From Trypanosoma brucei (lineage: Eukaryota), in the NCBI GenBank assembly GCA_000002445.1, contig AE017150.2, forward strand, positions 864,001 through 928,000: a stretch of 64,000 nt of DNA. The letters run 5' to 3'. A program made the position numbers and the translations under genes. Below, one piece after another: positions 5,105 through 53,198 of this stretch. The notes beneath the pieces were generated by a model. That model saw only the letters and a list, made by a program, of their open reading frames with translations. It was not told the DNA's origin and ran no database searches. Position 1 is the first letter of the stretch. The number at the start of each line of letters is the position of its first letter.

Positions 5105-5346
5105 TGTCAGTGTTGTTTCCTTATGAGTCTATCAAATACACACATATGCGGGAAAGAGGGAAGAGCGTGTCAGTAAAGGGGAAATGCAACAGTGACAATA
5201 GAAAAAGGAGTTACACAAGATATCAAATAATCACACATACACTCGAGGATAATAAACAAGAAACATGAAAAAGGATAACACAAATAATAATGGAAGAGAG
5301 CAGCCATATCACATATCCCAACAAATTGGTTAGTGAGGCACAGGTA
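4938..5346. repeat. direct repeat copy B (partner of 3037-3441)
   Basis: Same evidence as copy A. Covers the 5' coding end and upstream region of the intact gene at 4049-5104. Confidence 0.85.
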
Positions 5347-7825: not shown

Positions 7826-8125
7826 AGAAAATACGTCGGAGGGGAAAAGAGGTACAAAACTGTTGAATATAGGTGATGTCTGTTGCTAATGTTTCTTCTT
7901 TGATACTATTATTAATACTGGTGGATCGCGTAACGCAATCGCGCAGCAAAAATGAAAGGAGGGAAGAAGGGACATACACGACAAATACTCGGCACTATCT
8001 AACATACAATACAACCGCCACAACAATGTTGTTATTAACCCCAAATGCTCTCCCCCACTTGCCGCACACAAACACCCCATAATAACCGTAAGCGCCAACT
8101 CTGGTGAAGAATAAACCGAAAGCGT

Positions 8126-8126
<1 letters not shown>

Positions 8127-8170
<44 letters not shown>
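8127..8170. repeat. (CA)22 microsatellite in the 3' flank/UTR of the zinc-finger gene
   Basis: Uninterrupted cacaca tract read directly from the sequence. Confidence 0.95.
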
Positions 8171-8175
<5 letters not shown>

Positions 8176-8187
8176 AGACACCTCCAT

Positions 8188-32658: not shown

Positions 32659-33201
32659 TCATAGACTGAATCGAGCAATCGACATATCATTAACTGAGCT
32701 CTCTTCTTCATCTCCGGTGAAGTGGGTGACACTGGGTTCTTGTACACCGCTTCCACCATCGGTAGAACTATACGAACGACAAGCGCAGGCACAACAATTG
32801 TTTTGTAACAATGCCTTCAACTCCTCTAGCTCCCTCGTTTTCGACGATATGAGGGCCGCGTTTTCGGCAAGGGCCTCCAAAAGAACGCGGTCGTCACCAT
32901 CGGCATTTAGGGTGCTAATATCGTTGCTCGATAACGTCTGATGTCTTGTCCCTGAATTACGTCCTTCATCATTCAAGAATTCATTGATGTTAGCGTTGCT
33001 CTCCTTTAGTTTTTGAATATACTTTTCAATTTCTTCGATTTTATATGCAATGATCTCCATTTTATCACCATCCGACACAGGACCAATTAGCTTCCGCGGT
33101 AAAGCGGCGCTCCGTCGGAGCATGAACACACCCGGGAGAACCATATCCCCCCAACCATCACTACCGTCACCCGACATATCCTTTATACTAAAACAACACA
33201 C
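32659..33201 (-). CDS. hypothetical small coiled-coil protein
   Basis: 180-aa ORF. Central coiled coil (KMEIIAYKIEEIEKYIQKLKESNANINEFLNDEG ... TRELEELKALLQNN). Confidence 0.35.
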   Translation of the reverse strand: MCCFSIKDMSGDGSDGWGDMVLPGVFMLRRSAALPRKLIGPVSDGDKMEIIAYKIEEIEKYIQKLKESNANINEFLNDEGRNSGTRHQTLSSNDISTLNADGDDRVLLEALAENAALISSKTRELEELKALLQNNCCACACRSYSSTDGGSGVQEPSVTHFTGDEEESSVNDMSIARFSL

Positions 33202-33387
33202 ACAGATGTATATACCTAGAAAAACGAACGTCTCAACAAAGTGAAAGTTTATGTGTGATATAAAGATAAATTTATATCACAGTGACAATCGCAATAACGC
33301 TCCAAGCAATACAAAGCAAAATGAAAGCTTTAACCTGCACTGAGGCATAATTCAAAAAAAAAACTAAAACTAGATTGCCACACATAT

Positions 33388-34934
33388 CTACAATTTTAAC
33401 TTAGAAATGAGCGAAACACAATCTAGGGCTAACTCAACAGCCCTCACAGACCGCCGAAACTCTTCGCAATCCACCATGTGACCACTTGATACATAAGACC
33501 TACCGCTTCTGTACTGCCCAACAACACTATTTGCATATGACATCGAACTCATCAGCTTAGCGTGATCCTCAGCAATTTTCTCTACCTCCTGGACATACGT
33601 TGCCGGAGGCTCCACCAAAGAGGGGTTAAGACAAATAGCATGTGAAACCAGCACGGCGTGTATGGCGCCAGCAAAGTGCCGAAGGTACGCATTCTGACTA
33701 CCGTGACGGGGTAACCGACGGCAAATATACTCAGCTAAAAACAGACAACATATGCCAACGACCCCGCCGTTGGTATACATCGAACCAGAATACACCTCGT
33801 AGGCGTATTGAGCTGCCTTTTCACACACTTCTAGTAGAGCCAACTTGGTGATGGGATCACCAACGGGAATTACTATTGTCGCCACACTGTTTTTTCCATA
33901 TATCCAAAGCCCTCCCTCTCTTGACAGCGTTGCTCTGCGCACCATTCCGACCTTAAAGAAACCCCGCTTCGCTGATCCAGCGTATTCTGCCCACGCACAA
34001 AACTCGTGCTCGGTATGAAATGGTGTTGCTCCCGTTGCATGCTGGATAGCGTCACAGACACACAACGACAACCGCTCAAGAGAGACTATTCCCATGTCAA
34101 AAAGCAGTTCCTTCAGCTCACAACACATCAGGCGCTGGGATCCCAAGAAACTAACCCCTATACTGCCCACCAACGTTAGAAAGTCCTCCAACACAGCACC
34201 TCTCATCTCAAGTGAGCACGAAAACAGCAGTATACCACCTTCTCTACAGTCACCCTCCAACAGCATTCGTGATTCTATGGGCAAGTTAACAGATATAAAT
34301 ACCCCATCTTCCACATAAACCTCACTCAACTGTGTTTCCACAGATGACAATAAACACTGACTAACTTCTAGCATGTGGGCATCACTCGTTAAAAAGTATA
34401 TATTCTTTTTTTGGATCACAACATTAGAAATAAGTTGCGCAAGAAAGGCACAATCACCTTTTGCCAAAACACCGCAGCTGAGCAAAATCGACTCCACTCC
34501 ATGCAAGCAGCAATGACTAAATGTTGACTTACACCTTTCGGACCACAAGAAGCCGAAATAAGCTTCGTTGGCCCACTCCTTCAGCAACTTTACAGCTTGA
34601 TGCAAATACATACGTTTCCGGTAACAACAACTGACGCCGCCTACAACACCATCTACTGCACCGAAAAGCCTACATACTAAAAAACCAACCAGCAAACGCG
34701 ACGATTCTTCATAAAAATAAACTTCATTTAAACCTGAAGCCCGAGAAAGCAGCAAGGCACCAAAAAGCTGATTACAACTGTCCCCGCTTTGCATCATACT
34801 GTATTTGACAACATAGCTAAACCACGCAGCCTTAACACTAATACCAGAAGAATCAACAAACAAAAAACGTCTACGACGCCCATATACTTCAAAAAAACAT
34901 ATATTTAAAAAAGTTAACAACTCTTTCAAATTCA
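33388..34934 (-). CDS. divergent TCP-1/cpn60-family chaperonin-like protein (BBS/MKKS-type chaperonin-like?)
   Basis: ELLFDMGIVSLERLSLCVCDAIQHATGATP resembles the CCT intermediate/apical hinge block (dl.rla.atGa). SGSMYTNGGVVGICCLFLAEYI resembles the PGGGA(xE) block. The ORF track extends the ORF to 35028, but those extra 31 codons lie inside the SIRE-like repeat. The likely true start is MNLKELL at 34934. Confidence 0.4.
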
Positions 34935-34954
34935 TACTAATCACGCTAATACAA

Positions 34955-35518
34955 ACCTCATAATCAGACGCAAATCCAACATAGAAAAAGAAAAGGGGAT
35001 AAATCCGGTTAATTCCTCCTTCCGCCACACCAGCAGCACAAACACAACAAAAATGACGAAAAATGATACCAAATCACAACTACAAAAGAAAAAAATAAAA
35101 GTTACGAAACCATCCCGACACCTTGAAACATTTGAACAACACAAATAGCTGCGGGGGCTACGACAACCACAACAACGCAGCAACCAGTGGACCCTCTGAG
35201 GGACGGATGCTCGCACCGCAAAGAAAACTTCGGAGAGCACCACACACACACACACACACCCGTCTGAACCGCTCCCGTCGCGAGAAACAGCCTCCGCCTC
35301 TTCTCAGGTCAAGCACCGCTTAATACCACCGAACCAACATTCCCCACTGCATTCCGCACCCACACCACGGAAACACCACCGTCCAGACACGCTACAACAG
35401 TAAATATGAGTAGGGCCCGTCAAAACACACGGCATCCGGTGGGAAATGCCAACACGTTGCCACAAATTGGCGCAATCATGCAAAAGTCACTACCGCAACA
35501 ACCGAGGGCACTCCAGTA
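34955..35518 (-). repeat. intact SIRE-like interspersed repeat (~565 bp; segments X'+A), inverted relative to the split copy at 36640-37057 + 41360-41505
   Basis: The reverse complement of 35095-35518 matches 36640-37057 almost perfectly, including an internal (CA)8. The reverse complement of 34955-35095 matches 41360-41505. The contiguous small ORFs (66 aa MKHLNNTN..., 104 aa MCVCVV...) are mirrored on both strands. Confidence 0.85.
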
Positions 35519-36639
35519 GCCTCAGTTGTCATATCTTCGCTTTTCCTCCCGCTCCTGGAGACACCCTTGCTGTCCCACCAACCGCCTGAATCTACGCGCA
35601 CCTGCCCGCAGACGGCCCTTTTGTCACCGGTTTCCGCCCACACCTGTCACCGCAGCAACAGCCCGCCTATACTCCACGAGCCGGTGCCGGCAGAGGGAAG
35701 TGCCTTGCTTTTCGCATAATGCCACTGAACAAAGTCCCAAGCGAAAACAATGAGGGACAGCCGCACAAGACCGCCCAGTAGCGTAGTGACGGCAGCTCAG
35801 ATAGAGCGCTGCGGACCCAATGGATGCCATGACGGCTCTGAGGTTTACCCCCCCCCCCCCCGTGGAGGCAAACTCAGCGAGACCGGGGTCAAAGGGCCCA
35901 CTTGCCTTGTTCTGCCGATAAAACATAGAAAGGCGACAGGTGACCCGCGGCATCTGGTTTCCTGTCAGCAAGGTGGTGTCGACCACTGCAGCCCCATCGT
36001 GCAGTGGGTGCCATTCCCCAGCGTAAGAAAAGCATCGGTTGGGTGTGTGCCCTATCTGGTCCCCGGATGAACCTTCCCAACATATCGCTAGTCACATTCT
36101 TTTGCGGCGACCCACCCTCAAGCCCTTGCTAGCGGCCAAAGCTCTTCAGACACGGGTGTACTGGTACTTGTTGAGGATTTCCCTCACCTTATTCGGGTTC
36201 CATCTTTGGTGCTTCAGTGCGTTAGAAGGTCCGCCATATGCTGGCTCGTTGGGTGCATTTTTCGATACGTAGAACACGGTCTCAACGTCTTATTGGCGAA
36301 GCTCCGGCAAATTGCTATGGGGGCCCAGTGACCGGGCAAAGGTCCTACGTTTGAGGAGTCGCGGCTGACGGGCGACTTTTGAGTACCACATTTCAAAGGA
36401 AAATGGGGGGGGGGCGGCCAGTGATTCAATCGGTTCGTCCGGAACATTAAGTGGCCTTGGAGATGAAATCCTTTACTTGCCTCGGAAGCGACGCAAATCT
36501 CTCACTATAGTTGGGGAGAAATAGCCCTCGCCCCTCCGGCGTCCAAGCTTGCACGCGGAAGTACCCTAAGGGTGACGCTACCTAATCATAGAGGGACAAC
36601 GCATCACAAGAACTTCGAACTGCGGAAAGATAAGAGTGC

Positions 36640-37057
36640 CCTCGGTTGTTGCGGTAGTGACTTTTGCATGATTGCGCCAATTTGTGGCAACGTGTTGGCA
36701 TTTCCCACCGGATGCCGTGTGTTTTGACGGGCCCTACTCATATTTACTGTTGTAGCGTGTCTGGACGGTGGTGTTTCCGTGGTGTGGGTGCGGAATGCAG
36801 TGGGGAATGTTGGTTCGGTGGTATTAAGCGGTGCTTGACCTGAGAAGAGGCGGAGGCTGTTTCTCGCGACGGGAGCGGTTCAGACGGGTGTGTGTGTGTG
36901 TGTGTGGTGCTCTCCGAAGTTTTCTTTGCGGTGCGAGCATCCGTCCCTCAGAGGGTCCACTGGTTGCTGCGTTGTTGTGGTTGTCGTAGCCCCCGCAGCT
37001 ATTTGTGTTGTTCAAATGTTTCAAGGTGTCGGGATGGTTTCGTAACTTTTATTTTTG
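36640..37057 (+). repeat. 5' part (A') of the split SIRE-like repeat, flanking the retroelement
   Basis: Matches the reverse complement of 35095-35518. Similarity stops at cttttattttt|gtgagg. Confidence 0.85.
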
Positions 37058-37454
37058 TGAGGTTGAGAAAGGAATCGTCCATCCTTACCACTTTCCTTGT
37101 TATTCGTTCTTTCCTTTCTTATATATGCATAGAAAAACTATTACTGAGGAAAGTTTTTTAAAAAGGTAAGTAATCGCTGTAAGTTTTGAGAGATGGTAAC
37201 GACAACCCCTCCAACTATATTGGATGCCGAATGGAAAATAAGTTTGAAAGAAATAAGGACTTTTGTGAAGCAGGGCGGTCGGACCACATTTTCATTCGAC
37301 TATTGTCCCCCTTTTGGAAATACAGCGGTACACGTAGACGGTTTGGTGAGGCTTGAAAATGGAGAGCTTCGAGTGATTTTTGACTAGGCAGCTAAATTTC
37401 GTCGATTTACGGAGCTCGTTGGTTTCCTTCAATATGCCCTAAAACATTGAATTC

Positions 37455-38440
37455 TTGTGTATGTTCAAAGAAAATAGAGATATGTTTCGTAACGAATGTC
37501 TAGCACTAGAAGCAAATAAGTCTAATTTATACCAACAGTACGAAATGACAAGACCACAAATGAATGATGAGCACTGGAGAATGCAAAACCAGTCGATGGA
37601 ACTGAATAGGCAAGTTGAAAGGTTCATGCAAGAAAATTGTGCTTTGAGAGGGGAAATGGAACAGATGCTCTTCCATAACAATAGGTTAGTAGTTGTCATT
37701 GAATCGATAACACCTGAGTTACACCACTGGAAGATATTAGCAAATACGGACGCCACACATAAAACGGATCCAGTTGTCGAACAAGGGAGAGTAAAGAATG
37801 AATCAGATCAAAAGGAAAAAGGTAGAATAGAAATAAAGTTCCCTTTTGACTCATACAAATCACAGTTTTGTCAGAAATCAAGCGGTTAACATGTAAGGAA
37901 CCACAAGGTAGGAATCAGAGGCATTCAGCAGGTAAAAATAGCTTTGTGGGCAAGGGTTTTCCCCCTAAAGAAAACATACGGACGTTTAAAGGGGAGATCG
38001 AATACATGACGGAGACATCACCGGAACAGTTTTTTAACTGCGTACAAAGAATTGTTCCCATTACCACAAAAACCGGATTACGGGTCACAATGCGTCTGGG
38101 AGCAATTTGCGGCGTGGATAAGTGCAGTGGGAGTATAAGGATCTCAGAAGGTGGGATAACAGTCGGGAGGTCGATTCACACTTATCTTCGAGTCTTACAA
38201 ACAGCGAAAGCCCATCCGGGGGTGCGAGTGGAAGCGTTGGCAAAGGCAGTACATGACTCAAGGAGGGACGAGGATCCATACCATCAAGCATACCCAAAAG
38301 TTCAAAAACCGACTTCCCAAGTTAGCAGAATACGATGCTTCCGATGTGGGAAGTTGGAGCACTACAGTGCGTCATGCTTCGTTAAGGATGCCAAGGTTCC
38401 GTGGAAGCCAACAAGCGAATACCGGCCCCGGAAACAGTAA
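37455..38440 (+). pseudogene. gag-like ORF remnant with CCHC zinc knuckle (frameshifted near 37870)
   Basis: A coiled-coil N-terminal ORF (37455-37889) is followed, in a different frame, by a 190-aa ORF ending ...RIRCFRCGKLEHYSASCFVKD. This contains a Cx2Cx4Hx4C motif. Confidence 0.6.
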
Positions 38441-38870
38441 GCTTCGGGGCCGAGAAAATATTGGAATCCGTATCCATGGTTACGGGGCCAAGGACCCACA
38501 AGTGGGTAATAGCGAATGGAGAAATGCCACGGAAAACTTGCCGGGTAAAGGTCTGATGGTAGAGGAGGACACAGAGGACACAAAGGGAAGAGAGCCAGCA
38601 AGAGAAACGGCATCCCCAGTTTTGCGCCCTACGAAAACACCGGTAAACGAAGTTATCGTTATAAAACTGGCGACCCACGATCCGGTTATGGCGGCGTGGG
38701 CTTCATAATCGAATTGCATAGCAAGGGTCATGAGGACACAGTCAACTTGGGAGCAGCGGCGGTCGATTCTCAGAAGATTCTGCGAGTTTGCGGCAAAACA
38801 CAACGTGGAGCCAAGTGAGGGGAATGTTCCCATCTTCATTGTGAGTTTGTAACTGGACAAAAGCAGCGCC

Positions 38871-39382
38871 GTGAGGTATACAGGAACTCTTTTGTCGATG
38901 CTGGCAGCGGAAAAGGCACTAGCAAGAATGTTTTTGTTGGGTTTGCAGAGAAAAGTGGAGGAAACACCAATAAAGCAGGCCTGCCCCATGGAGATGTGGG
39001 AGCTGGACATGATAAGCGACACAACGGAACTGGAAAGGGAGCGAGTGGCCATGCGTCTGTCTTGGGTCACTGCCAGTCGTTGGGGAGAGATTGCTTCGCT
39101 GCAAAAGGAAAATTTTGTCGCTCATCCTCAGGACGAGGAGGCACTAATCGTCGACTGGGGGGCATCCCAAAGACATTCAAGTTAGATCCACGCAGAGCAG
39201 CGAGATATGTGGTCATCGCGGGCGAGGACGCCAAAAAGTTGAAGAAAGTCGTAAGGTTGATGGTGGATGAAGAAAAACTAACCACCATCAGCACAAGGGA
39301 CGTGGAAAACATTCTGAAACCTTACGCAATGACGGTACATTCTATAAAAAAAAAAGGGGGTCTCTACCTCATGCGACCGTAG
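38871..39382 (+). pseudogene. tyrosine recombinase (DIRS/VIPER-type integrase) remnant
   Basis: LSWVTASRWGEIASLQKENFV resembles the box I arginine region (LxxxTGxRxxExxxL) of YR catalytic domains. A later HSIKKKGG...Y region lies in a shifted frame. Confidence 0.4.
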
Positions 39383-39774
39383 CGGTGGTAGAAAACGACC
39401 TCGACTCACACATTCTGGCCCAGATGGGAAAACACGCGGACCCCATGGAATTTCGTCGGAGCACCACTAGGAATTTAGGGTCGTGGGTGGCAGTGCTAAA
39501 CAAGTAAATTTAACAGTGCTCATGCATAAACGGAGGGTGAGTGGGCCACGTTACTGTGGAAGGTTCAGAATCCAACGATAAAAATAATAGGACAGGACCT
39601 TTATTTCAGAGACACAACATTCTCCGACGCACCCATCAAACCAAGGTCGCCTCGGATACTGAGCAACAGGAGTCACCGTAACAACAGATGAATGTGGAGA
39701 CTTTATCGCTAAAATGGATCAAGTAACGACTGAATAGTCAATATTTACAGCTCTTCAATGATGTTTGGGAGACC

Positions 39775-41163
39775 ATGCGCAGACCGGCCAGGAAAGAAGG
39801 TCGGGAATACGAGCCAAAATTGACGATTTCAGACCAGAATACTATCACCGTGGAAAGAGAGGGTACAATTCAGAAAGTGTCCAACAACCCTACCACGGGT
39901 TGGGCGGTGCCCTTCACGGTAGTTGAAGAGAAGCCAACGGGTTGTCGAGGGCGAATCATTACATGGCCAAAGTCTAAGAATGCACAGGACGATTATGAAG
40001 CTATTGTTCCTCTGGGACACGTGCCACGCTACCTGGATGCTGTCCATGATGAGGGTGCAGCGCTTTGTGATTTAAAAGCTTCGTTTTCTTAAAAGCGGGC
40101 TTGCTGATGGACACCCGATCAGGTTTCTTATGCCGGACGGCAGGTGGAAAGCTCGTGGAACTTGCCCGACTTCCTATGGGTTACAAGTGTGGCCCGGGAG
40201 TCTTACACACGGCCCCGTGTGTATTGGCCGGGGACTCTGCAGTAGTGAAAGCTGAATATGCAGCGCCTTCGTAGCTAAAAGTACATGTGTGGATTGATAA
40301 TATTCGTATTAGCAGTCCACGGGAAGTTGTAAACTGATGGAACAAGGTGATTAGAAGAAACATGTTACAGCGCGGCGCAACTTCATGGAAAAGCAAGTCC
40401 ATCACCGCACTATATGATTTCATTGGAGTCCACTTTGGTCATGGTTCAAAGATGGTGCCATTGAGCAAAAAAACGGTGCGGAAACTCAGGAGGCTATCCC
40501 ACTGAGAGGGTTACTGTTGACAGTTTGGAGAGCATAGTATCCCGAATGATGTATGCGGCAGGGGCACGGGGAGGTTCTCTGTTCCGACATTTTTTTTTCT
40601 TAAAGATGGTAAGACGGCGCTTGTCGGAGCTCAACAGGTGTGTCTTGGCGCAGAACGACATGGCACGGCTTTCCCTCCAGGCAATCCGCATGGGGCAGGA
40701 GTGACTAAGCGGGTTGATCGAAAAAGAACCCGTTAAGCCGTCAAGGTAATTACCGACTTCTGCAACATCGGTTACCGATGCTTCTATACACGGCTGGTGA
40801 GCTTCACTTTTTAAGGACAATGGGAAAGTATGGGCTTCAGGAGGCCAGCGGGCACAACCTCCACATTGTATCTCTCATACCAAGGCGAGAGCAGTGACAT
40901 TGGCATTGAGAGCTTTTCAGGGCAGCCTGCTTAATAATATTTACGTATGTGTGGATAATACTACAGTTATGCATGTCACGAAAAAAGGTAACACACACTC
41001 CGATGCTTCGGTTCAAGAAGTAAGTTTAATAGATCATGTTTATCTGGAGGAAGGCATCGAGGCTCTTTGGGACTATGTTGTTTCATTAGCGAATTTCGCT
41101 GATGGTATCTCACGGAGGAGGGCGGTTTTTCCATCGGACTTAGCGAAAGGGTGGAACTTGTGA
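39775..41163 (+). pseudogene. reverse transcriptase / RNase H remnants
   Basis: A VHVWIDNIRIS peptide (YxDD-like, around 40280) is followed by a stop. The ORF 40894-41163 contains ...YVCVDNTTV... and ...SLANFADGISRR, which is an RNase H-like C-terminal (N..AD.LA) pattern. Confidence 0.35.
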
Positions 41164-41359
41164 TAGGGAGCGCGGGAGGCGGGATGAGAACGCTTTCACC
41201 AATTCCTTATCGTAAGTGTTTTGTTTCTTTCATTGTCTTAATATTGGGAGTTTTACCTACATTGAAAAAGCTTACCGTGATACCCCAAAATTGGCCATTT
41301 AAATAATTATATCTTTATCATAATTCTCTTCTATATGTAGGAGTAGGTAAGGTGCAAAC

Positions 41360-41505
41360 TATTCTTTTCTTTTGTAGTTGTGATTTGGTATCATTTTTCG
41401 TCACTTTTGTTGTGTTTGTGCCGCTGGTGTGGCGGAAGGAGGAATTAACCGGATTTATCCCCTTTTCTTTTTCTATGTTGGATTTGCGTCTGATTATAAG
41501 ATTCA
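41360..41505 (+). repeat. 3' part (X) of the split SIRE-like repeat, flanking the retroelement
   Basis: Matches the reverse complement of 34955-35095 (ttcttttgtagttgtgatttggtatcatttttcgtca...ggaattaaccggatttatcccc...). A pyrimidine-rich tract and AG dinucleotides follow, ahead of the VAMP7-like gene. Confidence 0.8.
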
Positions 41506-41712
41506 TCCGTGCGTGTTGTATAATTATTGATTGTTTTATGTTTGTAATTGGTTATTTGTTGCTTGTTTCTTATATTGCTCTTTTATTTGCTTCGTTGATA
41601 TGCTCAAATATATTCTTTTACATGTTTGTAGTGTAGTGTAGTTGAAGGAAAGGGTCCTAGTTTGTACCTGAGTATTGTGTTACTCTTTTTTATATATGGG
41701 AAGGAATTGCCA

Positions 41713-42378
41713 ATGCTTATATCTGCCTCCTTTGTGTCTTACCAGCGCATGATCGTTGCAGAACATCGTGTTACGGCTACAATGAAAGGTGTTGTTGATG
41801 TTATGCTCGAGCAGCTTCCTCGTTATGACACTAAAGCCGTCTATCAGTATGATGAAAGCGTGTTTCATTTTCTTGTTGAAAATGAACTTGTGTACGGTTG
41901 TGTCACAGGTGTGGATCACACAAAGCGCGTGGTATTTGAATTTTTGTCACGTATCCGTGATTTCTTTAAAAAAGAGTTTGCTGGTAGCGATAGGCGATAT
42001 CCACGACCCTCGGCTATTTCTTTCAGTGCTTGCAGTAAATTCGGCGCAGTGCTTTCAGATAATATGCGGTCATTCAATGAAACTAATAGTACAGATAAAC
42101 TTGGTGAAATTAATAAACTTGTTGATGATACGAAGCATACAATGTTGGGGAACATAGACGTGCTAATTGATCGCGGGGAGCGAATTGAATTATTGTGTCA
42201 TAAGACGGAAGTGCTTAACACCGGATCCCGTGCTTTTCAGTCCAGTGCTAGGTCGTTAAAGTGGAAAGTGTGTATGGGAAAGATGCGGTTTGTTATTGGG
42301 ACGTTTTTACTTTTCCTTTTCTTTGCGACCATATCTTTCATTTTCATTTGCGGCACTAACCTCAAGTGCAAAAAGTAG
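41713..42378 (+). CDS. R-SNARE, VAMP7-like longin-domain vesicle-associated membrane protein
   Basis: Longin-like N-terminus (MLISASFVSYQRMIVAEH...VYQYDESVFHFLVENELVYGCVTGVD). SNARE motif NIDVLIDRGERIELLCHKTEVLNTGSRAFQSSARSLK with the central Arg. C-terminal TM segment. Confidence 0.7.
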   Translation: MLISASFVSYQRMIVAEHRVTATMKGVVDVMLEQLPRYDTKAVYQYDESVFHFLVENELVYGCVTGVDHTKRVVFEFLSRIRDFFKKEFAGSDRRYPRPSAISFSACSKFGAVLSDNMRSFNETNSTDKLGEINKLVDDTKHTMLGNIDVLIDRGERIELLCHKTEVLNTGSRAFQSSARSLKWKVCMGKMRFVIGTFLLFLFFATISFIFICGTNLKCKK

Positions 42379-42512
42379 GAAACACGCTATCACGTAGTCG
42401 GACATTTTTTCATAGTGTAGTTTTTTATAGTTATTTCCACTTTGAAAAAAAAACATTGGTCACTTATTGCAGTTGCAGAGTAAGTGGTATTTGACAGATA
42501 CCTGCTGTTTTA

Positions 42513-43778
42513 TTGCATTATCTTTCGGGTCTTATCACTAAAAAGCAAAAAGAAGCTATACAAGGAAAGGGAAACTTGTCAAGGAAGTCCATTCTAAAAG
42601 AACCTATGGTGGTTACTTTGGTGGAACCAACGAAATGGGCTAATTTAATAGAGGAATACCCAGACACTCTTTATTCTTCCGAATCGGCAAAGAATGTTGA
42701 AAATGTACTCTCGAAAACGTCTACGAGGAGGCACCAAAAAGTGCTGTTCAACGCCGCCAAACCCTTTATGCCAAAAATGATACACGATTGCATTGGTACT
42801 TCGATTCTGAACTCTCTTGTTAAGTATGGTACTGTTACTACCGTCGACGGCGTTTGCAAAATAGTTTTCGAGTCTTGTGAAAAAATTCTGAGATGCCGAT
42901 GCAGCCCTGAAAATCAACGAATTGAATCGTTGGGTTCGCTTTTGGAACGCATTGTTTACCGCTACGACTGTTTGGGTAATTACCGGCAAAACATCATCGA
43001 AGTACTGAAGTCTCTAAGGCCCTCACAGCTTATGGGCACCCCTGTGCTCTTGTTGGCTGCCGCGCGACTGTTAATTCAAAATAGGGATTTTGCATCTTTG
43101 GTTCTGACAAATAGTGAGGCTCGAACGGAGTTTTTTTCAGCCTCCTTAGTAAGAACGAATAGGGGCGTCGTATCTGCTTTCTGCAAAATTCTTTTATCAG
43201 AAGATGCTTTAAAGGACGGTGAAATGACTGGTCTTTGTTCGGCGTTTATTTTCGATTCCTTTTCCGGATTGTATGAACCAAAAGCCACGCTGCGACCGAT
43301 GAAAGACATAACACTACTACTGGCTAGCTGCGGTTCCATTGATGGGGTCCGAAATCTCGGGAAAAGTCTGGCGCGTTGGCCGGATATTCACGGTAGGGCA
43401 AAGGGTGATGATTATGCCAAAATTGTGGCTCATATTTTATCCCGCCTACCTGATACCGACAGCGGATTGCCGCTTGTTAAGGCAGTTCTTCACTCTGAAG
43501 AGGATATAAATGATCGACTTCGTTGTCGCAAATCATCTCATTTGCATCTTCTCGCTTCAATTGCTGAAAAGCAGTCGTACGTTCAAGTTCTCTCAGAGGC
43601 ATTGGGTACTTCTGTGGAAAAGAAGCTTGCGAGTGCTGTTGTGCAGTACCGAAGAGTGACGAAACCACGAGTGGTTTCGACAAAAGAGTTGCTTTCCCGA
43701 AAGCTTGCCGATATGCGGAAAGGCTCCGGGGAGAATGACAGCGCGCGTAACGTTTCCAAGAGATTCCGTGAATGGTAA
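42513..43778 (+). CDS. hypothetical protein (421 aa)
   Basis: Long ORF in PTU orientation. No domain recognised. Confidence 0.4.
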   Translation: MHYLSGLITKKQKEAIQGKGNLSRKSILKEPMVVTLVEPTKWANLIEEYPDTLYSSESAKNVENVLSKTSTRRHQKVLFNAAKPFMPKMIHDCIGTSILNSLVKYGTVTTVDGVCKIVFESCEKILRCRCSPENQRIESLGSLLERIVYRYDCLGNYRQNIIEVLKSLRPSQLMGTPVLLLAAARLLIQNRDFASLVLTNSEARTEFFSASLVRTNRGVVSAFCKILLSEDALKDGEMTGLCSAFIFDSFSGLYEPKATLRPMKDITLLLASCGSIDGVRNLGKSLARWPDIHGRAKGDDYAKIVAHILSRLPDTDSGLPLVKAVLHSEEDINDRLRCRKSSHLHLLASIAEKQSYVQVLSEALGTSVEKKLASAVVQYRRVTKPRVVSTKELLSRKLADMRKGSGENDSARNVSKRFREW

Positions 43779-43942
43779 TGAATATCCTTACTATATATAT
43801 AGCGTTTAGTTTGTCATGGTGTTGAGGGATCATGTGATATTGTGTTATTGCCATTTTTAAAAAAAGTCCTGTACTTAACGCATTACATTTCTCCCCTCCC
43901 TCCTTTCCCCTACGGGAGTGGCAAAAAGGTTTAAAAGGCAGA

Positions 43943-44392
43943 ATGAAGCGTGTAGCTCAGAGTGCCCTTATCGCACGGTCGTGTGGGACATTTCTGTGCT
44001 CGAGGCGATGCAGCTTACTTGAACACAGGACGAAAGGCTCCATGTTCATGAAGCATTTAGATTTATATGCTAGACGGGATCCCCAGCTGGCTCCTTACTT
44101 GCTTAGGGAAGTTGACATAGAATATAAGAGGAGGTGTCGAAAGGTCTCGTTTTGTGCATGGATATGCGTATTTACCGCTGTAACTGCAGTGCAAATTCGT
44201 ATGCAAAGTGAGCAGTTGCACTACATGCGTTTGTACGCCGATTGTGTAGAAGCTGAGCAACGCGCTAAGGATGAGGATGGGATCCGGCGAAGGAAGGCAC
44301 TTGTTGCATTGATGAACGTTGCGAAAGATGCATTCGGTCGGAATCAGTCATGGGGTAATGAAGATCAAGAAAAGGCTCTCAAAGAATTGTGA
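43943..44392 (+). CDS. hypothetical small protein (149 aa) with one predicted TM helix
   Basis: ORF in PTU orientation. It has a hydrophobic segment (FCAWICVFTAVTAV). Confidence 0.3.
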   Translation: MKRVAQSALIARSCGTFLCSRRCSLLEHRTKGSMFMKHLDLYARRDPQLAPYLLREVDIEYKRRCRKVSFCAWICVFTAVTAVQIRMQSEQLHYMRLYADCVEAEQRAKDEDGIRRRKALVALMNVAKDAFGRNQSWGNEDQEKALKEL

Positions 44393-45184: not shown

Positions 45185-46654
45185 ATGGATTACGCCGCCG
45201 CAATAAAGCAGCAGGCAGAAGATCTGCAAGACGAGCTGAAGGACTTGGCTTTATGGCAGGAGGAAGTTGCACGTCAGCATGAAGTGAACAAGATGAAAAA
45301 GTCAGCCACATTTGTCACAAACTCTGTTCCTCCTATAAGAGGAACAGTACCATCCCTGAAGGAAGCCGTTTTGAAGAGCGCTGGTGTTGTTGAGAAGGAG
45401 GACCCTGTGAAGAAACAGAAAGACAAAGGTAACGAACTGTTCCAAAGTGGGAAACTCCAGGAAGCAGTGGAGGCATATGCTGTGGGTATAGACCTTGACC
45501 CAGAAGGGCCGATGGCACACGTGCTCTACGGCAACCGAGCGCTTTGTTACTTGAAGTTGGAGAGATGGTCTGATGCCGAACGGGATGCCTCCTCTTGTGT
45601 TCGTCTTAACCGCACATACGCCAAAGGGTACTTTCGCCGCGCTACAGCCAGGAAACAGCTAGGGAATTTAAAAGGTGCGCGTACAGACCTAGAGGCAGTG
45701 TTGGCGCTTTCACCGAATGATGTAAGTGCCACAAATGAGATGTCGTTAGTAACCAAAATGATCCGAGCAGATCGAGATGGCGCTGAACCGGTTACCAGGA
45801 AAAAGATTGTTATTACCGAGGTTGACGACGATGATGATGAGCAATGTGTGGGCGAGGGTGCTCAAGACAAGACGGCCTCTCCAAGTGTGATTGAAAGCAA
45901 CACCGGTCGACACCCTAACACCGTGGGAGATCAGGTAGTGAAAAATGAGATCGCTGAGTTGGAGAGGTTTCGGGCGGCCCAACGAGACGCACAGGAAGCC
46001 AGGTCAAGAGAAAGGGAAACCAAATTGCAGTACAAAGGACGTACTTCGTCGAGAGTGGAGATTGTGGAAGAAATCAACAATGAGAGTAAGGAAGGAGTAG
46101 TTGTTTCTTCGTCCCCTCTGTCACTAAACAACGGAGTGACGTCAGCGTCGGCACAAGAATGTCCTTCGAGAGAACTAGCCGCGGTTTCAACGAGCGGTGC
46201 AGCGCAACGACCGGCGACCTTTAAAGACAAAAAGATGAATGAGCCTGTTGTCCCTCGCATGCTAAAGCCGACTGTAAAGTGGACTAAGGATACTTTGAAA
46301 GCACCCAAGTCGTTTACAGAATTTGAGCGAGTTTTTTTAGACCTTAAGGACGATGAGGAACTGCTCTGTTTTTATGTTTCGGTTATACCCCCTGGGAGCA
46401 TGCAGGTGCTTTTTGGAAGCAATATGACACCTGATATTCTTCTTGGTATGCTGAAAGCGGCAGGAAGGCTTTCAGGAACATCAACGGTTTCTTTTCTCAA
46501 GGGACTGTGTACCGTGAAACGCGTGAGGGATATCTCACTGTTCTTTGATGACTGCGAGAAGAAGGTGGTCGAGGAGGTGATGGATGTTGTTGTCTCTTGC
46601 GGAGCTTCTGATGAGGATGTGAGCCTGTTTAGGCGGCAACTTGGGGTTATATAG
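45185..46654 (+). CDS. TPR-repeat protein (co-chaperone-like, RPAP3/Tah1-type?)
   Basis: Three TPR units are present (KGNELFQSGKLQEAVEAYAVGIDLDPEGPMAHVLYGNRALCYLKLERWSDAERDASSCVRLNRTYAKGYFRRATARKQLGNLKGARTDLEAVLALSPND). An acidic linker and a C-terminal globular domain follow. Confidence 0.55.
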   Translation: MDYAAAIKQQAEDLQDELKDLALWQEEVARQHEVNKMKKSATFVTNSVPPIRGTVPSLKEAVLKSAGVVEKEDPVKKQKDKGNELFQSGKLQEAVEAYAVGIDLDPEGPMAHVLYGNRALCYLKLERWSDAERDASSCVRLNRTYAKGYFRRATARKQLGNLKGARTDLEAVLALSPNDVSATNEMSLVTKMIRADRDGAEPVTRKKIVITEVDDDDDEQCVGEGAQDKTASPSVIESNTGRHPNTVGDQVVKNEIAELERFRAAQRDAQEARSRERETKLQYKGRTSSRVEIVEEINNESKEGVVVSSSPLSLNNGVTSASAQECPSRELAAVSTSGAAQRPATFKDKKMNEPVVPRMLKPTVKWTKDTLKAPKSFTEFERVFLDLKDDEELLCFYVSVIPPGSMQVLFGSNMTPDILLGMLKAAGRLSGTSTVSFLKGLCTVKRVRDISLFFDDCEKKVVEEVMDVVVSCGASDEDVSLFRRQLGVI

Positions 46655-46853
46655 ATGGAAACTTTTAATCTGTGTGACTCAGTCGGGGGGGGGGAAGTGC
46701 TTTTTCGTGCTAATTTTTAGTTGAGCATATGCGGCTTTGTGTTTCGCGTCTCTGCCGGTTTCTGGCGTGTTGCGTTGGTTTTCCGCTCCTTTCCAAACTT
46801 CAGTGTCGTTGCTTTTTTTTTTTTGATCCTTTTGCGTGTGGATGCAAGCAAGG

Positions 46854-51056: not shown

Positions 51057-53198
51057 ATGGATGAGCAAAACAGTGAGAGCTCGGATGTGGGGGGCTTACT
51101 TGAAGTTCTCGAAGAGTGTGCGCTTGGTGACTGGGACGTGAGTGCAGATGAGTTGCTGTTAAAGTCGTTGATGACAATGCAGGCGAAGCTTTCCGCCCGT
51201 TTTGACTCTATTCGCGGTATGGTGGACTCCCTTTATGATGAGGCGCGTACGGCCTCGATCCAACTTCAAAACGCCATGAATTCCTTTGCCGTCTTATCAC
51301 AGAGGCAGTTCGTGCAGAACCGTGTGTCGGCAGAAGACGAAGGTAGCGAAAGAGAAACCGAGCCCTCCAAGTCTGATGAAGGCGAGTCAGAGGATAGAGA
51401 AAGGGGTCTTGGGGACGTGGAGGTGAGGGTTGCCCGTATGTGCCAAGAGTGCGTAGACCTTAGCTATCGTGTTCTCAAGAAACGAACAATGCCGTTGCTC
51501 GACGAGGACTCTTCCCTGAGTGAGTATGGTTCGGGGGATGATGAGAGCGAAGGAAGCTCCGCTGAGGTTCGCCGCCCTTCTTGCTCTGAGAATCTCTTCA
51601 TGTCACCCATTACTTCAAGAAAATTTCTCAGCGACCCGTACGGGGGCTACTTTGATAATACTGTCGGCAAAGCAGATTTTACCTCGGGAGGGAGGCGTCG
51701 TCTTGGTGGTTCTACGGGACGAATGGGAAGAGGCTCGCGGCAAAACCCGTCAACGAGATTAGGGGGACCGACGACCGTGCGTCCTGCTGCGCCACCGCCG
51801 TTGCCACCCACTCCCCCACCGGTTCAGATGGCGAAGGCGAAAGGGACTTTGCCCCCACCACCTCCACCGATGCCCACAGGAAAGCTTAAGGCTCCCCCGC
51901 CTCCACCGCCACCGTTTGCGTCGATTGCTGGAAAGACGAGGGCACCCCTGCCACCGCCACCCCCTGCGCCTACTGGAAAGACTCAGGCCCCAGCAGCTCC
52001 ACCCCCTGCGCCTACTGGAAAGACTCAGGCTCCAGCAGCTCCACCCCCTGCGCCTACTGGAAAGACTCAGGCCCCAGCAGCTCCACCCCCTGCGCCTACT
52101 GGAAAGACTCAGGCTCCAGCAGCTCCACCCCCTGCGCCTACTGGAAAGACTCAGGCCCCAGCAGCTCCACCCCCTGCGCCTACTGGAAAGACTCAGGCTC
52201 CAACAGCTCCACCCCCTGCGCCTACTGGAAAGACTCAGGCTCCAGCAGCTCCACCCCCTGCGCCTACTGGAAAGACTCAGGCTCCAGCAGCTCCACCCCC
52301 TGCGCCTACTGGAAAGACTCAGGCCCCAGCAGCCCCGCGTGTCGCCGCACAGACGCAAAAGCAGCAGGCAAAAAAAGGTGTAGCTGCGTTTCTCGACTCT
52401 TCCGACAGTTCGGACGGGTCAGAAGCGAAACCATGTGCGGGGGCTGTGGTAAGACCGGGTCTGGCAGCTCCTTCGCTTGTACGAGAGAATTCAACGCTCC
52501 CGTCACCCGCACCAGTGCTAAGCATGAAGAGGCCACCTGCTGCTTCATCGGGAAAGGGAAAGGTTGCCCTGTTCGACTCGAGCTCGGATAGTGACGAAGA
52601 AAACTCTGGTGTGCGAGCAGCCACTTTCACTGAGAAGGATGACCAACAGTTCCCTAAGGGAGGGGTGGGTGCTGGTGATTTGGCGCGCAAAGGCTCTCCG
52701 AGGGGGGTTCCGAGTCGAGCAACGAGCGGCAGTAGGGTCGGTCCAACTGACCAACAGAAGCTGATATCACCAGTGGGCAGCCCGCGGAGCAGGCGTCCAA
52801 TCTTTTCTAGTTCAAGCGGCAGCTCTCCGGAAGCGACTCCACCGAGGGCGAGTATCAAACAAACCGGTTGCCGAGGTGCGGCTCTCGGGGTATCCAGTAC
52901 CGCACAGGTAGGCGGCGGTAATAACCAAAGCACAACCGCAAAACCTCTCCCAACCACATTTCAATCTGTCGAGAGGAGTGTTCCAGCGTCTCCACCGCCG
53001 CCAGAAGGAGTGCGTGCTAGGAGTGAGGCCGCACCTGCACAGTCGCCCGATGCCGCAGCCAATGTGATGCCTATTGTGAAGACGGAAACTCAACCACAAG
53101 GTGATGACAAAGAGCAGCATACTGCTGCGCCCCTGAAGGTGATACCCAATGTAGCCTTCAGCAAGCGTAAAATAAGCGATAGCGATTCCGACAATTAG
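51057..53198 (+). CDS. proline-rich protein with 9 tandem APTGKTQAPAAPPP repeats (FH1-like polyproline region) and acidic LFDSSSDSDEE motifs
   Basis: 713-aa ORF. PPPPPP runs precede a near-perfect 14-aa repeat array. No FH2 or WH2 domain is recognisable downstream. Confidence 0.6.
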   Translation: MDEQNSESSDVGGLLEVLEECALGDWDVSADELLLKSLMTMQAKLSARFDSIRGMVDSLYDEARTASIQLQNAMNSFAVLSQRQFVQNRVSAEDEGSERETEPSKSDEGESEDRERGLGDVEVRVARMCQECVDLSYRVLKKRTMPLLDEDSSLSEYGSGDDESEGSSAEVRRPSCSENLFMSPITSRKFLSDPYGGYFDNTVGKADFTSGGRRRLGGSTGRMGRGSRQNPSTRLGGPTTVRPAAPPPLPPTPPPVQMAKAKGTLPPPPPPMPTGKLKAPPPPPPPFASIAGKTRAPLPPPPPAPTGKTQAPAAPPPAPTGKTQAPAAPPPAPTGKTQAPAAPPPAPTGKTQAPAAPPPAPTGKTQAPAAPPPAPTGKTQAPTAPPPAPTGKTQAPAAPPPAPTGKTQAPAAPPPAPTGKTQAPAAPRVAAQTQKQQAKKGVAAFLDSSDSSDGSEAKPCAGAVVRPGLAAPSLVRENSTLPSPAPVLSMKRPPAASSGKGKVALFDSSSDSDEENSGVRAATFTEKDDQQFPKGGVGAGDLARKGSPRGVPSRATSGSRVGPTDQQKLISPVGSPRSRRPIFSSSSGSSPEATPPRASIKQTGCRGAALGVSSTAQVGGGNNQSTTAKPLPTTFQSVERSVPASPPPPEGVRARSEAAPAQSPDAAANVMPIVKTETQPQGDDKEQHTAAPLKVIPNVAFSKRKISDSDSDN
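51955..52335 (+). repeat. 42-bp tandem repeat, about 9 copies (gctccaccccctgcgcctactggaaagactcaggcYccagca), coding
   Basis: Read directly from the sequence. Copies differ only at synonymous C/T positions and by one A-to-T codon change. Confidence 0.9.

What the first reader, a model, noticed from the sequence alone, without database searches (positions are those of the whole stretch)
37058..41359. Degenerate tyrosine-recombinase retroelement (VIPER/DIRS-like) sitting in the divergent strand-switch region
Between the two PTUs there is a 4.3-kb block whose plus strand carries four remnants in order. The first is a coiled-coil gag-like ORF ending in a CCHC knuckle (CFRCGKLEHYSASC). The second is a fragment with the YR box-I-like signature LSWVTASRWGEIASL. 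The third is a YxDD-like RT box (VHVWIDNIRIS). The fourth is an RNase H-like C-terminus (YVCVDNTTV...SLANFADGISRR). The gag-YR-RT/RH order is that of VIPER-type elements rather than classical DIRS1 (gag-RT-RH-YR). All four are broken by stops and frameshifts, so this is a fossil. A YR retroelement fossil at a presumed Pol II initiation zone is notable, because repeats at SSRs can shape transcription start and chromatin boundaries.
Basis: partly seen in the sequence, partly recalled or inferred. Interest (0 to 1): 0.8.

Follow-up and report, generated by a model that had tools for sequence, protein, structure and literature searches.

The report
Dead VIPER retrotransposon in trypanosome DNA

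Summary
Observation and interpretation both hold. All five quoted motifs are at the stated places. The block 37057-41359 is exactly the extra DNA that interrupts one arm of a 567-bp inverted repeat, whose other arm serves as an empty site.

Frame-corrected translations match VIPER proteins of other trypanosomes:
- RT/RNase H: E=1.6e-140, 51% identity.
- Tyrosine recombinase (YR): E=2.3e-88, 57% identity.
- Gag-like ORF1 of a T. theileri copy: E=8e-26, same start and same stop.

Order (gag, YR, RT/RH), spacing and the YR/RT overlap equal those of the T. theileri element. An AlphaFold model of the closest YR relative (pLDDT 80.5) retrieves only Cre/Xer/integrase structures. The RT/RH profile hits pararetrovirus and Ty3 RT/RNase H.

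The copy is dead. It carries about 16 in-frame stops and at least five frameshifts. The conserved Tyr is Asn, the RNase H Glu is Lys, and no terminal repeats are detectable.

Flanking genes are identical to T. equiperdum OVI contigs, so the host belongs to the T. brucei group. VIPER fossils are already documented there (76 copies or fragments reported), as is the link between retroelements and strand-switch regions.

The only mild curiosities are the interrupted inverted repeat, probably a published siRNA-producing locus, and the insertion into a T-rich tract next to the likely start zone.

The parts
37057..41359 (+). Whole VIPER fossil (4303 bp). The 3' boundary is 41359 or 41364, depending on whether a 7-bp TATTTTT/TATTCTT duplication is counted.
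   Evidence: It is the extra DNA relative to the uninterrupted left arm of the inverted repeat. All homology to the VIPER proteins tested lies inside it.
37057..37192 (+). 5' non-coding end of the element.
   Evidence: Its first ~31 nt (GTGAGGTTGAGAAAGGAATCGTCCATCC...) are 24/31 identical to the 5' end of a second, 65%-identical copy in T. b. gambiense (L010). In both copies this sequence sits about 134 nt before the gag ATG. It has no repeat partner at the 3' end.
37193..38440 (+). ORF1, gag-like remnant. It has a central Q/E/L-rich segment (coiled-coil character not rigorously tested) and a CX2CX4HX4C knuckle at 38336-38377. Frames run f2, then f0, then f2; in-frame stops at 37440 and 37887.
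   Evidence: It is collinear with the T. theileri VIPER ORF1 (421 aa) from the same Met to the same ...RPRKQ stop, at 31% identity overall. The C-terminal 160 aa give E=8e-26 and the N-terminus E=1e-4. zf-CCHC E=0.0014.
38578..39507 (+). ORF2, tyrosine-recombinase remnant. Stops at 38706 and 38850; frameshifts near 39166 and in the A10 run at 39345-39354.

Catalytic-type positions:
- R in ASRWGEIA (39072-39101): kept.
- K in PKTFK (39164-39190): kept.
- H-S-I-K (39335-39352): kept.
- R: its codon is now out of frame.
- H in GKHADP (39427-): kept.
- Tyr changed to Asn (RYLG to RNLG, within 39463-39483).
   Evidence: E=2.3e-88, 57-58% identity and 100% coverage to T. theileri P0023. The family model has a Cre/Xer fold.
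38996..41190 (+). ORF3, RT/RNase H remnant, overlapping ORF2 in another frame.

RT motifs:
- A: CDLKASF 40066-40086.
- LPMGYKCGP 40170-40196.
- C: VWIDN 40287-40301.
- E-like: YDFIGV 40413-40430.

RNase H motifs:
- TDAS 40774-40785.
- Glu changed to Lys in ISHTKARAV 40870-40896.
- VDN 40951-40959.
- ADGISR 41098-41115.

There are 12 in-frame stops and frameshifts at 40088 and 40500.
   Evidence: E=1.6e-140, 51% identity and 100% coverage to T. grayi 'TcC31.12'. The family profile hits the RT/RNase H of 8r0s (1.8e-5) and of Ty3 (4ol8, 7q5b). Relatives carry precomputed PF00078/PF13456.
41191..41359 (+). 3' non-coding end of the element. No split direct repeats were found.
34954..35513 (-). Uninterrupted arm of the inverted repeat. 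It acts as the 'empty site' for the insertion (insertion point between 35091 and 35092).
36634..37056 (+). Inner part of the interrupted arm, 100% identical to 35091-35513.
41360..41503 (+). Outer part of the interrupted arm, 97% identical to 34954-35097.

Best explanation
The block is one dead copy of VIPER (vestigial interposed retroelement), the tyrosine-recombinase retrotransposon family of trypanosomatids, in a Trypanosoma brucei-group (Trypanozoon) genome.

Shown:
- It holds the complete coding body of the element: gag-like ORF1 with a CCHC knuckle, then a Cre-like tyrosine recombinase, then an overlapping RT/RNase H. About 136 nt and 170 nt of non-coding ends flank this body.
- It is inserted in the sense orientation into a T-rich tract (TTTTATTTTT^TTCTTTTGTAG) of one arm of a 567-bp inverted repeat. 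The repeat flanks the centre of a divergent strand-switch region.
- All three ORFs are disrupted. The position that carries the conserved Tyr is Asn, the RNase H Glu is Lys, and no terminal or split direct repeats remain.

Inferred from the family:
- When alive, the element was transcribed and its RNA was bound by the gag-like protein.
- Today it can neither encode proteins nor move. It is most likely a passive passenger at the head of the right-hand polycistronic unit. It puts 4.3 kb between the likely start zone and the T-rich tract and AG in front of the first gene.
For: Homology of each part:
- RT/RH: E=1.6e-140, 51% identity, full coverage. The tblastn chain runs 39232-41184.
- YR: E=2.3e-88, 57% identity, full coverage.
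- gag: E=8e-26, plus a matching N-terminus and an identical end.

Architecture. In T. theileri L002, gag is 4603-5868, YR 6001-6960 and RT/RH 6429-8658. In the window they are 37193-38440, 38578-39507 and 38996-41190. The gaps (133 vs 138 nt), the overlap (~500 nt) and the total coding length (4056 vs 3998 nt) agree.

Enzyme class:
- AF2 model of P0023: pLDDT 80.5.
- Foldseek against PDB: the 19 hits with E<=0.001 are all Cre/Tre/Xer, followed by phage and transposon integrases.
- The A3 profile aligns AHSIKRGA with Cre GHSARVGA, though below significance.
- R171, K202, H258, K261, R262 and Y301 are conserved across 41 relatives.
- The RT/RH profile hits the RT/RNase H of 8r0s (1.8e-5) and of Ty3.

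Decay: 16 stops in about 1390 aligned codons, with frameshifts.

Insertion. The exact flank match ends at 37056 and resumes at 41365 on a continuous paralogous arm. Homology to a second Trypanozoon copy begins at 37057.

Host. Flanking genes are identical to T. equiperdum OVI contigs, and one of those contigs carries the same 3' junction.

Literature. VIPER occurs in T. brucei and was regarded as extinct (PMC6681497). RepeatMasker counts 76 copies or fragments in T. brucei, 56 in T. evansi and 22 in T. equiperdum, with no TATE (PMC12278014).
Against: - Pfam models give only sub-threshold scores, both on the window fragments and on intact relatives.
- The PDB sequence-profile search for YR is not significant (Cre E=0.92), so the recombinase assignment rests on the fold search and on the literature.
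- The split direct repeats that define complete VIPER copies are not detectable.
- A 7-bp imperfect duplication (TATTTTT/TATTCTT) could be read at the junctions, whereas VIPER is reported to make none (PMC12278014).
- No VIPER reference or consensus sequence (T. cruzi or T. brucei) could be fetched and compared directly. The name rests on the source label 'TcC31.12', on 338-aa T. cruzi Dm28c relatives and on the architecture.
Confidence: 0.95

Rival explanations
1. The motifs are chance matches inside an unrelated (pseudo)gene or non-coding spacer.
For: Pfam hits are all below the curated cut-offs.
Against: E-values of 1e-140, 2e-88 and 8e-26 to three separate proteins that lie side by side in the same order in a T. 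theileri element.
Confidence: 0.005
2. It is a fossil of another tyrosine-recombinase retroelement group (TATE, DIRS1-like, Ngaro-like or PAT-like) rather than VIPER.
For: All these groups share YR plus RT/RH, and TATE has the same ORF order as VIPER (PMC12278014). No TATE, DIRS1, Ngaro or PAT protein was compared directly.
Against: - The best relatives are Trypanosoma proteins, including the one labelled TcC31.12 and 338-aa T. cruzi Dm28c proteins. That is the length given for the T. cruzi VIPER YR (PMC6681497 Table 1).
- TATE is reported absent from T. brucei, T. evansi, T. equiperdum, T. congolense, T. cruzi and T. vivax (PMC12278014 Table 1).
- The order gag-YR-RT/RH excludes DIRS1 proper.
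Confidence: 0.03
3. The inverted-repeat arms are themselves the long ends of the element. The left arm would then be a short SIRE-like derivative (5' end plus 3' end without the body), and the element would span 36634-41503.
For: In T. cruzi, SIRE consists of the 5' and 3' ends of VIPER joined together (PMC6681497). This is formally the same geometry as left arm = inner part + outer part.
Against: - Homology with the second Trypanozoon copy starts at 37057, not further upstream.
- Neither arm sequence occurs next to that copy or anywhere else in the 64 kb.
- The arms are 100% and 97% identical while the body is heavily decayed.
- The arms reach to within 22 nt (left) and 210 nt (right) of the first genes' likely start codons, as expected of host upstream regions.
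Confidence: 0.05
4. The fossil is not a passive passenger. It has been co-opted as a domesticated VIPER-derived gene, as a boundary or spacer element of the Pol II start zone, or as a source or target of siRNAs through the adjacent inverted repeat.
For: - It sits about 640 nt from a G10 run inside a divergent strand-switch region.
- VIPER domestication is reported in Leishmania and Crithidia (PMC5146736).
- VIPER is enriched at T. cruzi centromeric strand-switch regions (PMC13508446).
- Long perfect inverted repeats of T. brucei yield siRNAs (PMC3447711).
Against: - Every ORF is broken, and the longest open stretch (196 codons) is what about 16 random stops in 1390 codons would leave.
- There is no AT-rich satellite of the T. 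brucei centromere type in the window.
- No functional data could be examined.
Confidence: 0.05

Closest known systems
VIPER (vestigial interposed retroelement) of Trypanosoma: the T. cruzi type element, and the degenerate T. brucei and T. vivax copies of Lorenzi et al. 2006 (as cited in PMC6681497)
   Same: - Three ORFs in the order gag-like (CCHC), tyrosine recombinase, RT/RNase H, with the last two overlapping.
- 50-60% protein identity to T. theileri and T. grayi copies and 33-35% to T. cruzi copies.
- The W-I-D-N motif in place of YxDD.
- The degenerate state typical of T. brucei copies.
   Different: - No split direct repeats are detectable.
- A 7-bp duplication is possible at the junctions.
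- It is only 56% (aa) and 65% (nt) identical to another Trypanozoon copy, so the copies in this genome group are old and diverse.
TATE (telomere-associated transposable element) of Leishmania (Viannia) and monoxenous trypanosomatids
   Same: Same ORF order and the same kind of enzymes. Ribeiro et al. 2019 group it with VIPER as 'VIPER-like' (PMC6681497).
   Different: TATE is reported absent from Trypanosoma brucei and its relatives (PMC12278014). It was not compared directly here.
DIRS1 / Ngaro / PAT tyrosine-recombinase retrotransposons
   Same: Retroelements that use a Cre-like tyrosine recombinase instead of an integrase, and an RT/RNase H related to those of LTR elements.
   Different: DIRS1 has the order gag-RT-RH-YR, inverted terminal repeats and an internal complementary region. 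None of these is present here.
Cre/Xer/lambda-integrase tyrosine recombinases
   Same: A two-domain fold for the relative's model. Conserved R...K...H-x-x-(K/R)...H...Y positions across the family.
   Different: Sequence similarity is at noise level. The position matching Cre R292 is Lys followed by Arg (HSIKR). In this copy the Tyr is Asn.

Membership tests
VIPER | Three ORFs in the order gag-like, YR, RT/RH, with YR and RT/RH overlapping | tested here: met
   gag 37193-38440, YR 38578-39507, RT/RH 38996-41190. Spacing and overlap equal those of T. theileri L002.
VIPER | Sequence homology of each ORF to VIPER proteins of other trypanosomes | tested here: met
   E=1.6e-140 (RT/RH), 2.3e-88 (YR), 8e-26 (gag). 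T. cruzi relatives: E=2e-71 (P0011) and 1.7e-31 (P0039). No curated VIPER reference sequence was available for direct comparison.
VIPER | ORF2 is a tyrosine recombinase (fold and R-K-H-R/K-H-Y positions) | tested here: met
   - Fold, tested on the 57%-identical relative P0023: the top Foldseek hits are all Cre/Tre/Xer, E=5e-6.
- Positions are conserved in the family.
- In this copy R, K, H, K and H are kept, the R codon is out of frame and Tyr is Asn. The remnant is therefore homologous but not catalytically intact.
VIPER | ORF3 is an RT with a C-terminal RNase H | tested here: met
   - The A4 profile hits the RT/RNase H of 8r0s (1.8e-5) and of Ty3 (about 7e-3).
- Relatives carry PF00078 and PF13456.
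- The window keeps the motif A Asp, W-I-D-N and three of the four RNase H acidic residues; the Glu is Lys.
VIPER | CCHC (CX2CX4HX4C) box at the end of the gag-like ORF (present in T. cruzi, T. theileri and Leptomonas copies, PMC6681497) | tested here: met
   CFRCGKLEHYSASC at 38336-38377 aligns with CYRCGRIGHYSSTC of T. theileri ORF1. zf-CCHC E=0.0014.
VIPER | Split direct repeats (A1 at the 5' end; B1-A2-B2 at the 3' end) | tested here: not met
   No direct repeat links the two ends at seed 12, 8 or 7. The literature reports these repeats only for near-intact copies and says T. brucei copies lack conserved terminal repeats (PMC6681497). Their absence argues against an intact element, not against descent from VIPER.
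VIPER | Insertion without target-site duplication | tested here: inconclusive
   Exact flank matches abut with no overlap (37056 | 41365). Allowing one mismatch, 7 bp (TATTTTT/TATTCTT) are duplicated. The T-rich context makes either reading possible.
DIRS1 sensu stricto | Order gag-RT-RH-YR, with inverted terminal repeats and an internal complementary region | tested here: not met
   YR precedes RT/RH. The inverted repeats found in 33000-44000 lie outside the element or are split by it.
TATE | Closer to TATE than to VIPER proteins | not tested
   No TATE reference was available. TATE is reported absent from T. brucei-group genomes (PMC12278014 Table 1).
Domesticated VIPER-derived gene (PMC5146736) | A large intact ORF conserved at a syntenic position | tested here: not met
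   16 in-frame stops and at least 5 frameshifts.

The most novel reading that the evidence does not exclude
The fossil may mark something slightly more interesting than itself. It splits one arm of a perfect inverted repeat that straddles the likely bidirectional Pol II start zone. That repeat is probably the siRNA-producing Tb927_02_IR1.

The inner 423 nt of the arms are 100% identical, whereas the 139 nt beyond the insertion have 4 mismatches. The element itself has decayed by roughly 9% per site. This pattern would fit continuing arm-to-arm gene conversion that is blocked by the 4.3-kb heterology. It would also fit arrival of an already dead copy.

Together with the T-run in front of two independent copies, it could also mean that VIPER preferred the T-rich tracts upstream of genes.
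Probability: 0.15. Interest if true: 0.4.

Novelty: already known. Interest (0 to 1): 0.2.

Why it matters
It matters little beyond correct annotation.

- It labels a 4.3-kb stretch of a T. brucei-group strand-switch region as a VIPER fossil, with exact ends and a residue-level account of its decay.
- The paralogous 'empty site' gives a rare clean view of a VIPER insertion junction. Such junctions are poorly documented because terminal repeats are lost in T. brucei.
- Anyone who studies initiation, chromatin or small RNAs at this strand-switch region should know two things. The 4.3 kb between the G-run and the first gene of the right-hand unit are transposon debris. The flanking perfect inverted repeat is longer (567 bp) than its uninterrupted part (423 bp).

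Tried and rejected
- **Pfam on ten stop-free fragments and on intact relatives.** Only sub-threshold hits, so Pfam is not decisive either way.
- **PDB sequence searches.** The shallow YR alignment found nothing. The deeper one found Cre at E=0.92 only. Single RT/RH protein P0002 found nothing relevant.
- **First AlphaFold run with 5 sequences.** pLDDT 39.6, unusable. It was repeated with 41 sequences.
- **Terminal or split direct repeats.** None found.
- **Ends compared with the T. theileri copy.** No conservation.
- **tRNA and Rfam search of 33-43 kb.** Nothing.
- **Satellite arrays of the centromere type.** None.
- **Identity of the 1120-nt spacer of the inverted repeat.** A full HMMER search with its longest open frame returned only the same ORF (a UniParc entry) and repetitive unnamed proteins.
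- **Tests of whether the repeat arms belong to the element.** No copy beside the second VIPER copy or elsewhere in the window.
- **Orthologous locus in other genomes, by exact protein look-up.** Only fragmented T. equiperdum contigs and short Logan contigs were returned. Five other look-ups found nothing (one search gave the same contig). Presence or absence of the insertion in T. b. gambiense, T. congolense or T. vivax therefore could not be checked.
- **G-runs in strand-switch regions.** A literature check for their reported link with T. brucei start sites found no usable passage. That point rests on my recollection of Siegel et al. 2009.


Full report
**What is in the sequence**

The window is a divergent strand-switch region. 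All ORFs of 250 aa or more lie on the - strand up to 35028 and on the + strand from 42513. The cumulative GC skew turns at about 36 kb.

The repeat finder reports two inverted-repeat pairs:
- 35091-35513 / 36634-37056: 423 nt, 100% complementary.
- 34954-35097 / 41360-41503: 144 nt, 97% complementary.

The left arm (34954-35513) is therefore one continuous 560-nt sequence. The right arm is the same sequence interrupted by 4.3 kb.

At the junction the empty arm reads ...AACTTTTATTTTT|TTCTTTTGTAG.... The exact match of the 5' flank ends at 37056, and the exact match of the 3' flank resumes at 41365, with no overlap. If the C/T mismatch at 41364 is tolerated, 7 bp (TATTTTT/TATTCTT) are present on both sides. 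The element is thus 37057-41359 (or -41364). The T-rich context does not allow a decision on a target-site duplication.

**What it is**

Pfam on the stop-free fragments gave only weak hits: zf-CCHC 0.0014, RVT_3 0.018, and nothing for a recombinase or RVT_1. Direct comparison is decisive instead.

*RT/RNase H.* A frame-joined translation of 39727-41160 finds 22 proteins. The best is 'TcC31.12' of T. grayi (E=1.6e-140, 51% identity, 100% coverage). T. theileri, T. melophagium, T. vivax and T. cruzi proteins follow, several with precomputed PF00078 or PF13456. Many carry wrong names such as 'TOR kinase 1'.

*Tyrosine recombinase.* The translation of 38709-39504 finds T. theileri and T. grayi proteins mislabelled 'trans-sialidase' (E=2.3e-88, 57% identity, 100% coverage). 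A profile search extends this to 59 proteins. They include:
- 338-aa T. cruzi Dm28c proteins, the length given for the T. cruzi VIPER recombinase in PMC6681497, Table 1.
- 'Hypothetical, unlikely' ORFs of T. b. gambiense and T. congolense.

*Genomic context of the closest relative.* The contig of the T. theileri recombinase (L002) shows three adjacent + strand genes: a 421-aa ORF, the 319-aa recombinase and an RT. That 421-aa ORF matches the window at its N-terminus (37193-37375, MVTTTPPT... against MLSTTRPS..., E=1e-4). It also matches over its last 160 residues (37964-37437 region, i.e. 37964-38437; E=8e-26), including the CCHC box and the identical end ...RPRKQ-stop.

*Frameshift-aware alignments* give:
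- gag 37193-38440: 31% identity, 2 stops, frames f2, f0, f2.
- Recombinase 38578-39507: 58% identity; stops at 38706 and 38850; frameshifts near 39166 and in an A10 run at about 39350.
- RT/RNase H 38996-41190: 50% identity; 12 stops; firm frameshifts at 40088 and 40500.

The gag-to-recombinase gap is 138 nt here against 133 nt in T. theileri. The recombinase/RT overlap is about 500 nt in both. The coding span is 3998 nt against 4056 nt. This is the published VIPER layout: a gag-like ORF followed by two overlapping ORFs for YR and RT/RH (PMC12278014, PMC6681497). It is not the gag-RT-RH-YR order of DIRS1.

**Enzyme classes**

Intact relatives also score below the Pfam thresholds: Phage_integrase 0.069 to 0.007, RVT_1 1e-5. 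I therefore tested the fold.

An AlphaFold model of T. theileri P0023 from 5 sequences failed (pLDDT 39.6). With 41 relatives it reached pLDDT 80.5. Foldseek against the PDB returned only tyrosine recombinases at the top. Cre, Tre and archaeal Xer fill the 19 hits with E<=0.001 (best 5e-6, probability 1.0), aligned over about 300 or more columns. Phage, transposon, XerH and lambda integrases follow.

The sequence profile aligns AHSIKRGA with Cre GHSARVGA, though not significantly. In the 41-sequence alignment R171, K202, H258, K261, R262 and Y301 (P0023 numbering) are the conserved positions. Matching them to Cre R173, K201, H289, R292 and Y324 is my inference from motif similarity.

In the window copy:
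- R (ASRWGEIA), K (PKTFK), H-S-I-K and H (GKHADP) are kept.
- The following Arg codon is thrown out of frame by the A-run expansion.
- The Tyr is Asn (RYLG to RNLG, codon AAT).

The RT/RH family profile hits the RT/RNase H of PDB 8r0s (1.8e-5) and of Ty3 (4ol8, 7q5b; about 7e-3). The alignments pair FDLKASFFQV with FDCKSGFWQV, LPMGYK..P with VPFGLK..P, DAS..GWG with DASDDYWGG and NPADGISR with HFADFLSR.

The Glu of AQAEARA is Lys (SHTKARA).

**Host and other copies**

Flanking proteins (an aldo-keto reductase, a TPR/RPAP3 protein and a 149-aa protein) are identical to genes on T. equiperdum OVI contigs. One of these contigs contains the 3' junction of the fossil (41169-41364, 100%), joined to the downstream genes at 99.5% identity. 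The window therefore comes from the T. brucei group, and the insertion is shared with T. equiperdum.

A second Trypanozoon copy was recovered from T. b. gambiense chromosome 11 (L010). It has gag, the recombinase and only the start of RT, and it lies between + strand genes and a - strand gene. It is only 65% (nt) and 56% (aa) identical to the window copy. That is no closer than either copy is to the T. theileri and T. grayi copies. The copies are therefore old.

Homology between the two copies begins at the insertion boundary. GTGAGGTTGAGAAAGGAATCGTCCATCC matches GGGGAGCTTGCGAAAGGAATGGCCGATC (24/31), in both cases about 134 nt before the gag ATG and just after a T-run. This supports 37057 as the true 5' end. 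It also argues against the idea that the repeat arms are SIRE-like ends of the element. In addition, the arms have no other copy in the window or next to L010. No split direct repeats are detectable.

Sixteen stops in about 1390 aligned codons imply very roughly 0.09 substitutions per site since inactivation. An open run of 196 codons (the end of gag) is unremarkable at that density.

**Comparison with what is known**

- VIPER was described in T. cruzi and then found in T. brucei and T. vivax. It was regarded as extinct because no functional copies or conserved terminal repeats were seen (PMC6681497).
- A 2025 survey counts 76 VIPER copies or fragments in T. brucei, 56 in T. evansi and 22 in T. 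equiperdum. It finds no TATE and states that VIPER makes no target-site duplication (PMC12278014).
- Degenerate retroelements at strand-switch regions are a known theme. VIPER and L1Tc are enriched at T. cruzi centromeric strand-switch regions, and ingi/DIRE plus AT-rich repeats mark T. brucei centromeres (PMC13508446).
- The window has no such satellite.

The finding is therefore a correct identification of an already known kind of fossil in a genome where it is already known to occur.

**Context worth recording**

The inverted repeat is probably Tb927_02_IR1 of Tschudi et al. 2012. That repeat is 422 bp, 100% identical and a DCL2-dependent source of siRNAs (PMC3447711, Table 3). I matched it by size and identity only. 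From memory, the neighbouring DnaJ and aldo-keto reductase genes fit chromosome 2.

The repeat is really 567 bp long, with its outer 144 bp displaced by the fossil. The inner part has 0 mismatches in 423 nt and the outer part 4 in 139 nt (Fisher p=0.0036). This fits arm-to-arm gene conversion that stops at the heterology, but that is inference.

The 1120-nt spacer (55% GC) carries C14 at 35848-35861 and G10 at 36405-36414. That places a G-run on the sense strand of each diverging unit. Only one other run of 8 or more exists in the 64 kb. As I recall, G-runs have been linked to Pol II start regions in T. brucei (Siegel et al. 2009); I could not confirm this in the papers held.

The fossil lies about 640 nt downstream of the G10 run, in the sense orientation. 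It is inserted in the T-rich tract immediately before a GTAG that may be the splice-acceptor region of the first gene. The tract is partly restored by the element's own 3' end.

**Verdict**

Novelty: already known. Interest is low.

Noticed in passing
34954-35513 and 36634-37056 + 41360-41503: A 567-bp inverted repeat straddles the centre of the divergent strand-switch region. Its inner 423 nt are 100% identical. The outer 144 nt are 97% identical and are displaced by the VIPER fossil (0/423 against 4/139 mismatches, Fisher p=0.0036). It is probably the siRNA-producing Tb927_02_IR1 (422 bp, 100%) of Tschudi et al. 2012 (PMC3447711), matched by size and identity only.
   Followed up: partly
35514-36633: The 1120-nt GC-rich (55%) spacer of the inverted repeat carries C14 (35848-35861) and G10 (36405-36414). 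That places one G-run on the sense strand of each diverging transcription unit, 544 nt apart. No tRNA, Rfam family or recognisable protein remnant was found. Its longest open frame matches only a UniParc copy of itself.
   Followed up: partly
46685-46694: This is the only other G/C run of 8 or more in the window: G10 on the + strand just after the stop of the 489-aa TPR/RPAP3 gene (45185-46654).
   Followed up: no
L010 7834-10731 (T. b. gambiense chromosome 11, FN554974.1 about 3.015 Mb): A second, truncated VIPER fossil (gag, YR, start of RT), 65% identical in DNA to the window copy. It retains an open 141-aa recombinase C-terminus with HSIKRG and RYLG intact. It lies between + strand genes and a - strand trans-sialidase-like gene, so it is also at a change of coding strand. 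Like the window copy, it is preceded by a T-run.
   Followed up: partly
L004 1-560 (T. equiperdum OVI contig CZPT02000724.1) against window 40715-41465: The contig start is scrambled relative to the window. Its positions 1-227 match 40715-40941 at only 96.5%, while the rest matches at 99.5-100%. About 100 nt of the outer repeat arm (41365-41465) are missing. This is either a short-read mis-assembly at repeats or a trace of a closely related paralogous copy.
   Followed up: no
51957-52333: A tandem array of nine 42-nt units (97% matches) lies inside the 713-aa ORF 51057-53198, so that protein contains a 14-residue repeat.
   Followed up: no
protein database hits P0001-P0066: VIPER ORFs in public trypanosome annotations carry misleading names. 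Recombinases are called 'trans-sialidase', 'MCAK kinesin' or 'SH3 domain protein'. RT/RNase H proteins are called 'target of rapamycin kinase 1' or 'rab1 small GTP-binding protein'.
   Followed up: no
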